This document shows, piece by piece, positions 20,036 through 21,715 of a stretch of 64,000 nt of DNA. The translations under genes were made by a program, and so were the position numbers. Within the stretch, counting starts at the first letter, position 1. Each line of letters begins with the position of its first letter. The notes under the pieces were generated by a model that saw only the letters and a program-made list of their open reading frames with translations, searched no databases and had not been told where the DNA came from. Source of the stretch: Candidatus Thorarchaeota archaeon (GTDB taxonomy: Archaea; Asgardarchaeota; Thorarchaeia; Thorarchaeales; Thorarchaeaceae); NCBI GenBank assembly GCA_048882325.1, contig JBHLRS010000012.1:1-64000 (forward strand), given 5' to 3'.

Positions 20036-21715
20036 ATGATTCAAGATACTGACCGATTTGATTCACCAGACGATGAGAAACCAGTCTTTGTTGAAGAAGG
20101 CTACTTCTCAGGAGCTCGGATAGGCGAAGCCATTGACTGGTGTATCACTCGACAGGACCGGGAGTTGCATTGTGAAGTCGAAGGGAAACTCACCTCAACT
20201 GGAAAAGAGGTAAAATTCAGAGGGAGAATTCTGAAGGTCAAGAAAGGTGTCTTGACGCGGAGAATTGCAATCTATGTTGAAGAAGACCTTCGTCGACGGC
20301 GAGCTGGTGAGCTTGACAAGGTTCTCACGGTAGGCGGAGAAGGATCGGGACAGGATGATGTGGCTGCCACACAGATCACAGTCCAGAACTATCTGAAACG
20401 CAACTTGGCTGACGACTTGTATTATGATGGGCGAGACCTCCAACAAGCAGTGAAAGATCTTGAGAAGATGAAGAGCCAGGAGGTCGAGTGTACTGTTTGG
20501 GGCCGAAGAGGGTCTGACAAGACCATGATAATGATCAAAGGGACCATTGTTGGGGCATCTACAAGACCTGCGCCAATACTTCCTGAAGGAACACTTGAGG
20601 TGCGAGTCGAGCCAGAGGAGGAGGTTGGAGACCCAAAAATCTACATGGTTGCTCAACCACAATTACTCATCGGACCGAGTTACAACCCAAATCTGACAAT
20701 ACTGGCCACAAAGGTCTATATCATGCCCTTTGCTTGGAAGCAGGCACCAGAATACAGAGATGTGCTTGCGGCCAGAAATCTGACAGTCACTATCAAGAGT
20801 GGGAAGAAGTTAATCGAGAACGTGTCATTCTCTATGCGTGAGGGTGAGATGTTAGCCATTATCGGTGAGTCAGGCGCAGGAAAATCGACCACCGTCAAAG
20901 CACTCATTGGAGACATTCCCAGTACAGGTGTTGCACGAATTGCAGGGATTGACTCACGACAGACACAGAAAGTCCGCCACTTCTTCGGGTACTGTCCTCA
21001 AGATCTGTCTTACATGTACGAAACGTTCACTCCGCTTGAGAACATCATTGCCTTCGGAAAACAGTACGACATCCCCGAATGGCAGCTGATTCAGAGGGGA
21101 AAGACGCTCCTGAGAGACTTTGGTATTATTGAGAAAGGAAATAGTCCGACCAAAGAACTCAGTGGTGGTCAACAGAGACGTGTTTCAATTGGCATTGCAT
21201 TGGCGCACAAGCCTAAGGTCTTGCTTATGGATGAGCCAACGTCAGGGTTGGACCCTGACAACCGGAATGAGCTGTGGAACTATCTCACATACATCAATCA
21301 GGAGTATGGAACCTCCATCATTGTGATCACACACTACCCAGTAGAGGCAGAGTTCTGTGACAAGGTGGCTGTCTTTATGCGCGGCAAGAGCCTTGTTGCG
21401 TTCGGAAGCCCAGCCTCATTGAAAGAGTCAATGCCATCTAGAGGGTTTGCTGTGGGGATTGTTCTCGAAGAGGTGGATCCGAGAGCACGAGTGGCACTAG
21501 AGAAAGTGAAAGGTGTTAGGTTCGTGCTGCAGAGGGGCGAACTTCTGAAAATGTTCACAGATGAGCCCCTAGAAGTGATTGCTGAGAGGTGTGTCACTGC
21601 TCTCAAAGAGCAGAACATTCCTGTCAAGATTGTGAAGACCAAGTCTGTCGCAGACATGGTCGATTACTATGTAGCTATTACACGAGGTCTTATTCAGGGT
21701 ACAATTGAGAAGTGA
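20036..21715 (+). CDS. ABC ATP-binding protein with N-terminal tandem TrmB-C-like domains
   Basis: Walker A GESGAGKST, LSGGQ, LMDEP, H-loop ITH; about 235-aa N-terminal extension with two repeats of the TrmB C-terminal pattern. Confidence 0.88.
   Translation: MIQDTDRFDSPDDEKPVFVEEGYFSGARIGEAIDWCITRQDRELHCEVEGKLTSTGKEVKFRGRILKVKKGVLTRRIAIYVEEDLRRRRAGELDKVLTVGGEGSGQDDVAATQITVQNYLKRNLADDLYYDGRDLQQAVKDLEKMKSQEVECTVWGRRGSDKTMIMIKGTIVGASTRPAPILPEGTLEVRVEPEEEVGDPKIYMVAQPQLLIGPSYNPNLTILATKVYIMPFAWKQAPEYRDVLAARNLTVTIKSGKKLIENVSFSMREGEMLAIIGESGAGKSTTVKALIGDIPSTGVARIAGIDSRQTQKVRHFFGYCPQDLSYMYETFTPLENIIAFGKQYDIPEWQLIQRGKTLLRDFGIIEKGNSPTKELSGGQQRRVSIGIALAHKPKVLLMDEPTSGLDPDNRNELWNYLTYINQEYGTSIIVITHYPVEAEFCDKVAVFMRGKSLVAFGSPASLKESMPSRGFAVGIVLEEVDPRARVALEKVKGVRFVLQRGELLKMFTDEPLEVIAERCVTALKEQNIPVKIVKTKSVADMVDYYVAITRGLIQGTIEK

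What the first reader, a model, noticed from the sequence alone, without database searches (positions are those of the whole stretch)
20036..20740. Two TrmB C-terminal-like domains fused to an ABC ATPase
Repeat 1 (CEVEGKLTSTGKEVKFRGRIL...LTVGGEGSGQDDVAATQITV) matches my recollection of the C-terminal subdomain of the archaeal sugar sensor TrmB (VEG...TGE.V...G.V...VGG.GA..EDI.A..I). Repeat 2 (CTVWGRRGSDKTMIMIKGTIV...TILATKVYI) is a degenerate copy. In TrmB this region contributes to sugar binding. Only one of the two ATPases has it, suggesting an asymmetric, ligand-regulated NBD heterodimer.
Basis: inference. Interest (0 to 1): 0.72.

Follow-up and report, generated by a model that had tools for sequence, protein, structure and literature searches.

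The report
TrmB sensor barrels on ABC ATPase
An Asgard archaeon (Thorarchaeota) has an ABC-transporter ATPase whose first 235 residues are two copies of the small beta-barrel that the archaeal regulator TrmB uses to hold sugars, so a sensor part known only from a DNA-binding regulator appears to be wired directly to a membrane transporter.

Summary
ORF 20036-21715 (559 aa) is a complete DrrA-type ABC ATPase.

- **Repeat 2 (res 125-235):** it is a true but degenerate copy (profile-profile E 3e-14).
- **Sugar loop:** repeat 1 keeps the GG...(E/Q/D)D backbone of TrmB's sugar loop, and its invariant residues sit there. The hydrophobic contacts are polar, and an Arg-rich insertion is added, so the ligand is probably not TrmB's.
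- **Missing parts:** TrmB's other sugar-binding subdomain and its DNA-binding domain are absent.
- **Distribution:** the fusion was found only in Asgard archaea, in 81 of 201 genomes sampled.
- **Gene neighbours:** it always lies beside one ABC-2 permease, a plain paralogous ATPase and a ~1400-aa subtilase/GIFT membrane protein.

Ligand binding and control of the ATPase are inferred, not shown. I saw no earlier scan note on other DNA and found no paper. I rate it a new variant of a known kind, of moderate interest.

The parts
20036..21715 (+). Gene for the fused ATPase (559 aa, P0001): tandem TrmB-type barrels, then an ABC nucleotide-binding domain, then a DrrA-type C-terminal domain
   Evidence: ORF list and translation. 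Pfam ABC_tran E 3.5e-27 and Regulator_TrmB E 3e-8. TIGR01188 drrA aligns over 260-548 at E 1.7e-51, below its cut-off.
20036..20083 (+). Residues 1-16, a variable and probably disordered N-terminal leader
   Evidence: pLDDT below 50 in both models. The columns are poorly conserved in A1.
20087..20404 (+). Repeat 1 (res 18-123): strand, helix and flattened beta-barrel, equivalent to the second subdomain of the TrmB effector-binding domain (TrmB 248-342)
20285..20320 (+). Residues 84-95, a conserved acidic and Arg-rich loop (DLRRRRAGELDK). It is an insertion of about 9-11 residues relative to TrmB.
   Evidence: hhalign places a gap in TrmB here. R86 is kept in 117/123 members and R87 in 106/123. 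pLDDT is low at 88-93.
20327..20359 (+). Residues 98-108 (TVGGEGSGQDD), collinear with TrmB K317-D327, the loop that holds the non-reducing glucosyl
   Evidence: hhalign gives an ungapped alignment here. T98, G100 and D108 are invariant in 123 members. G101 is G in 82 and S in 37. Q106 is kept in 103/123. Position 107 is E in 50, Q in 43 and D in 25. TrmB contact residues are taken from PMC4158304.
20408..20740 (+). Repeat 2 (res 125-235): a second strand-helix-barrel module. In Thorarchaeota its GG...D loop has degenerated.
   Evidence: hhalign repeat 1 against repeat 2, E 3e-14. Model elements E128-131, H132-144 and strands to 231. Repeat-2 profile against TrmB profile, E 1.4e-7. TrmB chains are the top PDB sequence hits, at E 0.13.
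20765..21430 (+). ABC nucleotide-binding domain (res 244-465) with all catalytic motifs: Walker A 277-284 (nt 20864-20887), Q322, signature 375-379 (nt 21158-21172), Walker B and catalytic Glu 395-400 (nt 21218-21235), H433
   Evidence: The motifs are read directly from the sequence and are invariant in A5. Pfam ABC_tran hit.
21431..21712 (+). C-terminal alpha/beta domain (res 466-559), shared with the plain ATPase and with DrrA-type ATPases
   Evidence: BLASTP to the second ATPase runs through this domain (33% identity, E 1e-48). drrA profile positions up to 300 of 302 are covered.
18840..20024 (+). ABC-2 permease (394 aa), the only permease gene of the module
   Evidence: Pfam ABC2_membrane_3 E 6e-31. 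Five hydrophobic segments found by the scan. It is adjacent in distant homologs.
21705..26084 (+). 1459-aa membrane protein: subtilase (S8) domain, GIFT/DUF4350 domain, a C-terminal TM helix (res 1354-1381) and a cytoplasmic tail
   Evidence: Pfam Peptidase_S8 E 1.7e-33, DUF4350 30.7 bits, IFT52_GIFT 28.5 bits. TM scan. A giant S8 protein is the neighbour in Freyarchaeum and Sigynarchaeota homologs.
25848..26081 (+). Conserved 78-aa cytoplasmic helical tail of the S8/GIFT protein
   Evidence: Alignment A4 of 24 tails from 5 GTDB families. The tail is found in the same genome families as the fused ATPase.
26077..27084 (+). Second, plain DrrA-type ABC ATPase (335 aa, P0139) with canonical motifs and no N-terminal barrels
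   Evidence: Translation and Pfam/NCBIfam hits. Its ortholog is the top hit and lies 1-6 kb from the fused ATPase in 5 of 5 genomes.
27081..33899 (+). 2272-aa surface protein: a propeller-like head and CglD/TSP3-like Ca-binding repeats, one TM helix (2126-2151) and a cytoplasmic domain of about 120 aa. It is the last gene of the operon in this genome.
   Evidence: NCBIfam NF033765 CglD E 4e-89, below cut-off. Weak propeller Pfam hits. TM scan. It was not seen next to the Freyarchaeum homolog.

Best explanation
The gene encodes the specialised ATPase subunit of an Asgard-specific ABC-2 (DrrA-type) transporter module.

Shown:
- Its first 235 residues are a tandem duplication of the second subdomain of the TrmB effector-binding domain (strand, helix, flattened beta-barrel).
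- They are fused in one reading frame to a catalytically complete nucleotide-binding domain.

Inferred:
- Repeat 1 is a cytoplasmic ligand-binding site built on the loop that in TrmB cradles the non-reducing glucosyl. The ligand is most likely a carbohydrate-type molecule, either a sugar metabolite or the sugar end of a glycoconjugate.
- It probably differs from TrmB's neutral alpha-glucosides, because the hydrophobic contacts have become Asp/Glu, Ser and Gln and an Arg-rich loop is inserted next to the site.
- Repeat 2 is degenerate in Thorarchaeota. It probably replaces the missing first TrmB subdomain as the wall of the cleft or as a spacer.
- Ligand occupancy is passed to the attached nucleotide-binding domain. 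That domain works with the plain paralogous ATPase on one ABC-2 permease, so ATP turnover is gated from one side only.

In principle this resembles the accessory domains of MalK, ModC, MetN or Wzt.
For: Identity of the domain:
- Pfam PF11495 scores 33.6 bits against a cut-off of 22.2.
- Foldseek's top two hits are TrmB, at E 5e-6 and 1e-4.
- ESM Atlas neighbours are TrmB regulators at rmsd 1.4-2.0 A.

Duplication: hhalign E 3e-14 between the two repeats.

Functional loop:
- The alignment to TrmB V318-D327 is ungapped.
- Repeat 1's three residues invariant across all 123 members (T98, G100, D108) sit in that loop.
- TrmB's G320 and E326 equivalents are kept in kind.
- Six of TrmB's seven sugar contacts lie in this subdomain (PMC4158304).

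Real fusion under selection:
- 145 homologs of about 559 aa are 63-93% identical over the N-domain.
- There are 16 clusters at 50% identity. 14 of the 16 either show an ABC_tran hit themselves or have a full-length, ABC-named member of their 90% cluster.
- It is mostly single-copy: one match in 73 of the 81 genomes with a hit among 201 Asgard genomes.

Competent enzyme: all ABC motifs are present and invariant.

Paired ATPases: the plain ATPase ortholog is adjacent in 5 of 5 genomes of 5 families, and in the Freyarchaeum and Sigynarchaeota contigs, always with one permease gene.

Precedent: the cytoplasmic carbohydrate-binding domain of Wzt modulates ATP hydrolysis of an ABC-2 type exporter (PMC9445017).
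Against: - No binding or activity data exist.
- TrmB's first effector subdomain, with the sugar-recognition helix and Ser229, is absent.
- Three of the six barrel contacts (M321, V324, I325) are replaced by polar residues, and the equivalent of N305 cannot be aligned with confidence.
- G319 and D327 are also invariant in the 21 Thermococcales TrmB proteins but are not listed as sugar contacts. Conservation of the GG...D frame may therefore be structural.
- Repeat 2 has lost the motif in Thorarchaeota.
- No glycosyltransferase or sugar-metabolism gene was recognised in the operon.
- The barrel belongs to the broad Sm-like fold class, whose members bind RNA, peptides or small ligands.
- The full-length model (pTM 0.65) gives no usable information on how the barrels touch the ATPase domain.
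Confidence: 0.5

Rival explanations
1. The barrels are a protein-docking module. They bind another component of the machine or a cytosolic regulator. Candidates are the conserved 78-aa cytoplasmic tail of the S8/GIFT protein, the cytoplasmic domain of the giant adhesin, and the plain ATPase. No small ligand is involved.
For: The S8/GIFT protein with its conserved cytoplasmic tail occurs in the same genome families as the fused ATPase, usually within 5 kb: f1 16/17, f21 1/1, f6 5/5, f11 14/17, f18 6/6, and none in the families without the ATPase. Sm-like barrels often mediate protein or RNA contacts. The hydrophobic sugar contacts of TrmB are not kept.
Against: Repeat 1's invariant residues T98, G100 and D108 lie in the loop homologous to TrmB's ligand loop, which is what a retained pocket would look like. 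Families f20, f24 and f8 have barrel proteins, but the tail was not found there with this query.
Confidence: 0.25
2. The barrels are a substrate-capture domain in the manner of the Wzt carbohydrate-binding domain. They hold the cytoplasmic sugar end of a lipid-linked glycan or glycoprotein precursor that the ABC-2 permease then exports. This is a special case of ligand binding but differs from allosteric sensing of a metabolite.
For: The ATPase and permease are of the ABC-2/DrrA exporter type. TrmB's barrel recognises the non-reducing end of sugars. Wzt shows that such a domain exists on this transporter class and modulates ATP hydrolysis (PMC9445017). The module's extracellular partner has a GIFT domain. 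From my own recollection, unchecked here, that domain type is also present in GldG and OST48.
Against: No glycan-synthesis genes were recognised in the operon or in the neighbourhoods of the distant homologs. The fold and its position (N-terminal Sm-like barrel) differ from the Wzt domain. From my own knowledge, unchecked here, the Wzt domain is C-terminal and a jelly-roll.
Confidence: 0.15
3. The domain is an evolutionary relic with only a structural or solubility role, such as a spacer or dimerisation handle, and no specific ligand or partner.
For: Repeat 2 has visibly decayed in Thorarchaeota. Stand-alone barrels occur elsewhere without ABC neighbours.
Against: The N-domain stays 63-93% identical across Thorarchaeota. 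It has invariant polar residues, and it persists across at least seven Asgard families at 22-44% identity. This argues for a specific function.
Confidence: 0.1

Closest known systems
TrmB of Thermococcus litoralis / Pyrococcus furiosus (PDB 2F5T, 3QPH), second subdomain of the effector-binding domain, residues 248-342
   Different: There is no winged-helix DNA-binding domain, no coiled coil and no first (PLD-like) effector subdomain with the sugar-recognition helix. The barrel is duplicated in tandem. The hydrophobic sugar contacts M321, V324 and I325 are polar here. An Arg-rich loop of about 9-11 residues is inserted. The barrels are attached to an ABC ATPase instead of a regulator.
Wzt of the WzmWzt O-antigen ABC transporter (PMC9445017)
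   Same: It is an ABC-2 type exporter ATPase with an extra cytoplasmic sugar-recognising domain that influences ATP hydrolysis. This is the closest analogue in working principle.
   Different: From my own knowledge, unchecked here, the Wzt domain is C-terminal, a different fold (jelly-roll), and sits in homodimeric ATPases. Here the domain is N-terminal, Sm-like, tandem and present on only one of two paralogous ATPases. No glycan link is shown.
MalK, ModC and MetN regulatory domains of ABC importers (my own knowledge, not tested here)
   Same: An accessory beta-rich domain on the ATPase subunit binds a regulator or the transported solute and gates ATP hydrolysis.
   Different: Those domains are C-terminal (TOBE or ACT-like folds), occur in importers with binding proteins, and are symmetric in homodimers. 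No TOBE or ACT Pfam hit was listed for this protein.
GldA/GldF/GldG gliding-motility ABC system of Bacteroidota
   Same: The composition is similar: ABC ATPase, ABC-2 permease and a membrane protein with a GIFT/DUF4350-type domain.
   Different: The GldA model scores far below its cut-off (98 bits against 402.6). Neither the GldF nor the GldG NCBIfam model is in the hit lists for the permease or the GIFT protein. This module also has two ATPases, a subtilase domain on the GIFT protein, and the TrmB barrels.
WYL-domain sensors (PafBC, BrxR, CapW)

Membership tests
TrmB effector-binding domain, second (barrel) subdomain (C-terminal part of Pfam PF11495) | Sequence-profile match above the curated threshold over the barrel part of the model | tested here: met
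   33.6 bits against a gathering score of 22.2, E 3e-8, profile positions 162-231 of 233. Eight of the 10 distant homologs scanned also listed PF11495, and six of them scored above the 22.2-bit cut-off.
TrmB effector-binding domain, second (barrel) subdomain (C-terminal part of Pfam PF11495) | Fold: strand E-beta9, helix E-alpha4 and an irregular flattened beta-barrel (as described in PMC4158304) | tested here: met
TrmB effector-binding domain, second (barrel) subdomain (C-terminal part of Pfam PF11495) | Sugar-contacting residues N305, G320, M321, V324, I325, E326 are kept | tested here: inconclusive
   G320 corresponds to G101 (G 82, S 37 of 123). E326 corresponds to position 107 (E 50, Q 43, D 25). 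M321, V324 and I325 correspond to D/E, S/G/T and Q. N305 cannot be placed because of the inserted loop. Whether the TrmB contacts use side chains or the backbone was not checked.
TrmB-family sugar-sensing transcription regulator (whole protein) | N-terminal winged-helix DNA-binding domain (PF01978) | tested here: not met
   No PF01978 hit. The protein's other domains are ABC_tran and a DrrA-type C-terminal domain.
TrmB-family sugar-sensing transcription regulator (whole protein) | First effector subdomain (eight-stranded sheet with sugar-recognition helix, Ser229; PF11495 positions 1 to about 140) | tested here: not met
   The Pfam match covers only positions 162-231, and both N-terminal modules are barrel-type.
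TrmB-family sugar-sensing transcription regulator (whole protein) | Binds maltose, sucrose or other sugars | not testable with these tools
   Needs ITC or thermal shift on the purified N-domain.
ABC ATPase, ABC-2/DrrA type | Walker A, Q-loop, LSGGQ signature, Walker B with catalytic Glu, H-loop | tested here: met
   GESGAGKS 277-284, Q322, LSGGQ 375-379, D399-E400 and H433 are read and are invariant in 24 homologs. Pfam ABC_tran E 3.5e-27.
ABC ATPase, ABC-2/DrrA type | Match to the drrA subfamily model above its trusted cut-off | tested here: not met
   TIGR01188 is the best NCBIfam hit and is covered end to end (9-300 of 302), but it scores 175 bits against a cut-off of 312. The protein is DrrA-like, not a DrrA subfamily member.
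ABC ATPase, ABC-2/DrrA type | Encoded next to an ABC-2 family permease | tested here: met
   The permease 18840-20024 hits ABC2_membrane_3 at E 6e-31. The same holds in four distant homolog contigs.
GldAFG gliding-motility ABC system | GldA equivalog match; a GldG-type accessory protein with a GIFT domain | tested here: not met
   GldA TIGR03522 scores 98 bits (fused ATPase) and 135 bits (plain ATPase) against a cut-off of 402.6. The GIFT and DUF4350 Pfam hits on the 1459-aa protein are just above their cut-offs (28.5 against 27.2; 30.7 against 30.4). ABC_transp_aux is below its cut-off (20.6 against 34.7).
Wzt-type carbohydrate-binding ATPase | C-terminal carbohydrate-binding domain on the ATPase that recognises the glycan cap | tested here: inconclusive
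   The extra domain here is N-terminal and TrmB/Sm-like. No Wzt chain appeared in the structure lists, but absence from a list does not exclude it. This is an analogy of principle only.

The most novel reading that the evidence does not exclude
The TrmB-type sugar-sensor barrel acts directly on a transporter rather than on DNA. In Asgard archaea it was found in this study only in the ABC ATPase or as small stand-alone proteins, and never in their TrmB-like regulators. There it reads a cytoplasmic carbohydrate signal or glycan end. It then gates, from one side, a heterodimeric ATPase pair that powers a conserved surface machine made of an ABC-2 permease, a GIFT-domain pseudo-subtilase and, in Thorarchaeota, an integrin-like adhesin. 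That would be a new regulatory class of ABC-2 transporter. It would also link a prokaryotic sensor fold to a GIFT-domain surface system in the closest archaeal relatives of eukaryotes.
Probability: 0.2. Interest if true: 0.7.

Novelty: new variant of a known kind. Interest (0 to 1): 0.5.

Why it matters
- **A testable handle on an unknown transporter.** ABC ATPases with accessory ligand-binding domains are the main known way transport is controlled after translation (MalK, ModC, MetN, Wzt). This would add a new sensor fold, in a new position (N-terminal, tandem, on one of two ATPases), in an Asgard-specific transporter whose substrate is unknown. The N-domain is about 235 aa and probably soluble, so it can be screened for ligands. 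A hit would give the first clue to what the module moves.
- **The TrmB effector domain is modular.** Its barrel subdomain can exist and be duplicated without the other half. In the Asgard genomes sampled, the TrmB-like regulators themselves lack it.
- **Limit.** If the domain only docks a protein or is structural, the finding stays a modest annotation improvement for a family now labelled simply 'ABC transporter ATP-binding protein'.

Tried and rejected
- **BLASTP of the two halves of this protein:** no similarity. The repeat is visible only with family profiles.
- **phmmer of residues 1-245 against PDB sequences:** no TrmB hit.
- **Repeat-1 profile (A2) against PDB sequences:** only chance-level hits such as VipD and uL3, and no TrmB.
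- **Profiles A1 and A3 against PDB sequences:** TrmB is the top hit, but only at E 0.1-0.7.
- **hhalign of repeat 1 against TrmB:** modest on its own (E 3-4e-4, Prob 34-39%). The case for repeat 1 rests on Pfam and the structure match.
- **The search for related loci with a 48-aa TrmB piece in genome contigs:** found nothing. TrmB was then obtained through the search for homologous proteins.
- **Complex prediction, N-terminal barrels (A1) with the 78-aa cytoplasmic tail of the S8/GIFT protein (A4):** no verdict, score 0.01 against a mark of 0.32, controls not run. This is neither support nor evidence against.
- **Full-length AlphaFold model:** pLDDT 77.6, pTM 0.65. It gave no usable information on barrel-to-ATPase contacts, because no PAE or contacts are returned.
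- **Neighbourhoods of the stand-alone barrel ORFs (L050, L051):** no ABC genes and nothing informative.
- **The 769-aa divergent upstream gene, checked for a sugar link:** no Pfam or PDB sequence hit, only a language-model lead.
- **Literature:** no paper held TrmB with Asgard and ATP-binding cassette. For Asgard, GldG, GIFT domain, IFT52 and ABC transporter, only two IFT52 papers appeared and neither mentions Asgard. The library lacks most subscription journals.
- **Rejected reading, a mis-assembled or frameshifted gene fusion:** the same single ORF of about 540-590 aa recurs across several Asgard families.
- **Rejected reading, a degenerate-site heterodimer:** both ATPases have canonical motifs.
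Full report
**What is there.** The stretch 20036-20740 is the first 235 codons of a 559-codon ORF (20036-21715, + strand). The ORF starts 11 bases after an ABC-2 permease gene (18840-20024) and overlaps the next gene.
- Pfam finds an ABC_tran domain at residues 261-403 (E 3.5e-27).
- Upstream of it, Pfam finds PF11495 Regulator_TrmB at residues 39-117, matching profile positions 162-231 of 233, at 33.6 bits (cut-off 22.2), E 3e-8.
- All ABC motifs are present: Walker A 277-284, Q322, LSGGQ 375-379, D399-E400 and H433. They are invariant in 24 homologs.
- The best NCBIfam model is drrA, covered end to end but below its cut-off. The protein is therefore a DrrA-like ABC-2 class ATPase with a 240-residue N-terminal extension.

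**Repeat 1 is the TrmB barrel subdomain.**
- I modelled residues 1-245 with a 25-sequence alignment of family members (pLDDT 78, pTM 0.72). The model has two modules with the same order of elements, a strand, a helix and then a barrel, at 18-119 and 128-231.
- Foldseek against the PDB ranks the two TrmB structures first (3QPH E 5e-6, 2F5T E 1e-4). Everything else has rmsd above 9 A.
- TrmB 248-342 is exactly the 'second subdomain' of the effector-binding domain, described as a strand, a helix and an irregular flattened beta-barrel. It carries six of the seven residues that contact maltose or sucrose (PMC4158304).
- In the ESM Atlas, the nearest models after the protein's own cluster are TrmB regulators at rmsd 1.4-2.0 A.

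**Repeat 2 is a real but decayed copy.**
- BLASTP of the two halves finds nothing.
- Profiles of the two halves cut from the family alignment align at Prob 98.2%, E 3e-14, over 97 columns.
- In distant members (Freyarchaeum, Jordarchaeaceae, Helarchaeota and Sigynarchaeota labels), repeat 2 still has the V-G-G...D-V-x-A-x-K pattern. In Thorarchaeota this has become V-A-Q...T-I-L-A-T-K.
- In one homolog the Pfam TrmB hit lies in repeat 2.
- A repeat-2 profile aligns to a profile of 21 Thermococcales TrmB barrels at E 1.4e-7.

**The ligand loop.** I retrieved TrmB itself (P0138).
- hhalign aligns P0001 V99-D108 to TrmB V318-D327 without gaps.
- Among 123 family members, T98, G100 and D108 are invariant. 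G101 (TrmB G320) is Gly or Ser, and position 107 (TrmB E326) is Glu, Gln or Asp.
- The equivalents of M321, V324 and I325 are Asp/Glu, Ser/Gly/Thr and Gln.
- Just before the loop the family has a conserved insertion, D-L-R-R-R/K-..., that TrmB lacks.
- The frame of the TrmB pocket is thus the most conserved part of repeat 1, but its lining has changed. I read this as a retained binding site with a different and more polar or anionic ligand.
- This is inference. G319 and D327 are also invariant in TrmB without being listed as contacts, so part of the conservation may be structural.
- TrmB's first effector subdomain (positions 1-140 of the Pfam model, with Ser229) and its DNA-binding domain are absent.

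**Distribution.**
- A search of 1.84 billion cluster representatives with the N-domain found only 16 clusters. Those long enough to show it carry ABC_tran, and the named ones are all Asgard: Thor-, Jord-, Frey-, Hel-, Sigyn-, Ran- and 'Promethearchaeota' labels.
- The word-indexed search found 145 near-full-length homologs, mostly Thorarchaeota, 63-93% identical over the N-domain.
- In 201 Asgard genomes the family profile hits 81, mostly once per genome: the window's own family 42/43, and other GTDB families 17/19, 6/6, 5/5, 3/3, 3/3 and 3/40. None was found in several others, for example 0/21 and 0/10. These genomes are related and sampled, so the counts describe and do not prove.
- In 61 Asgard genomes, the barrel part of PF11495 was found only in these ATPase ORFs. 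The many TrmB-like regulators matched only positions 1-140.

**Gene neighbourhood.** In this window the operon runs: permease, fused ATPase, a 1459-aa protein, a plain 335-aa ATPase, and a 2272-aa surface protein.
- The 1459-aa protein has a subtilase domain, a GIFT/DUF4350 domain, a C-terminal TM helix and a cytoplasmic tail.
- The plain ATPase is 33% identical to the fused one and has canonical motifs.
- The 2272-aa protein has CglD/TSP3-like repeats.
- Homologs as distant as 22-34% identity in the N-domain keep the set, in other orders. Freyarchaeum (CP147778.1) has a divergent S8 giant, the fused ATPase, the permease and the plain ATPase. A Sigynarchaeota contig has the same. Two shorter contigs show the permease, the fused ATPase and a giant ORF.
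- In 5 of 5 genomes from 5 families, the best match to the plain ATPase (42-54% identity) lies 1-6 kb from the fused one.
- The 78-residue cytoplasmic tail of the S8/GIFT protein is conserved across five families and occurs in the same families as the fused ATPase.
- The conserved core is therefore one permease, two unlike ATPases and the S8/GIFT protein. A heterodimeric ATPase pair is the simplest reading but is not shown.

**Mechanism.** I favour a cytoplasmic ligand-binding role for repeat 1, with repeat 2 as its structural partner, passing occupancy on to the attached ATPase domain (confidence about 0.5).
- The closest working analogue is the carbohydrate-binding domain of Wzt, which recognises the O-antigen cap and modulates ATP hydrolysis in an ABC-2 type exporter (PMC9445017). 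MalK, ModC and MetN are the importer analogues (my own knowledge).
- The rivals are a protein-docking module (0.25), Wzt-like substrate capture as a distinct case (0.15) and a merely structural relic (0.1).
- My one complex prediction, barrels against the tail, gave no verdict and counts neither way.

**Novelty.** Public Pfam annotations already flag PF11495 on these proteins. The sources name them only as ABC ATP-binding proteins, and I found no paper on the fusion in the searchable library. Accessory sensor domains on ABC ATPases are a known kind. This fold, its position, its duplication and the one-sided arrangement are new, so I class it as a new variant of a known kind with interest 0.5.

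**Limits.**
- Both structures are predictions.
- hhalign was run without secondary structure.
- Family names of genomes are anonymised in the tool.
- Counts across kin are not independent.

Noticed in passing
L050:4981-5466 (-) (G053:C53:10879-11175); also G044, G061; L051:4953-5369 (-) (G152:C8:66554-66859): Small stand-alone ORFs (138-168 aa) in other Asgard genomes consist of a single barrel related to repeat 1 (family f20, 3 of 3 genomes, E about 1e-13) or to repeat 2 (some Thorarchaeota genera). Their neighbours are not ABC genes. They may be free forms of the module.
   Followed up: partly
window 25848-26081 (+): The 1459-aa S8/GIFT protein ends in a conserved 78-residue cytoplasmic helical tail (R-rich, IPE-L-D, D-L-D-R-I-x-K, ending V-G-G-V or G-E). 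The tail is kept across five GTDB families and occurs in the same families as the fused ATPase.
   Followed up: partly
window about 22923-22958 (+): In the subtilase domain, the motif where the nucleophile Ser is expected reads D-T-T-T-A-S-A-A-I-T-A-G. A Thr appears to replace the Ser, while the Asp (LDTG) and His (HGT) motifs are present. I checked this by eye only.
   Followed up: partly
window 16300-18609 (-): A 769-aa gene transcribed divergently from the operon has no Pfam or PDB sequence match. A protein-language-model search puts it near clusters without a Pfam family and, at rank 26, near a rhamnosidase-like six-hairpin glycosidase cluster. This is a lead only.
   Followed up: partly
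Asgard genomes G001-G060: All TrmB-like regulators found in 61 sampled Asgard genomes match only the first subdomain of the TrmB effector domain (profile positions 1-140). In this sample the barrel subdomain occurs only in the ABC ATPase.
   Followed up: partly
G000:C3:130314-130718 (L001), outside the window: This genome's own TrmB-like ORF has an in-frame TGA inside the PF11495 match. It could be two genes, a pseudogene or a sequencing error.
   Followed up: no
window 27081-33899 (+): The 2272-aa protein has ten matched stretches to the Myxococcus gliding lipoprotein CglD model (E 4e-89, below cut-off). It also has a single TM helix at residues 2126-2151 followed by about 120 cytoplasmic residues.
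   Followed up: partly
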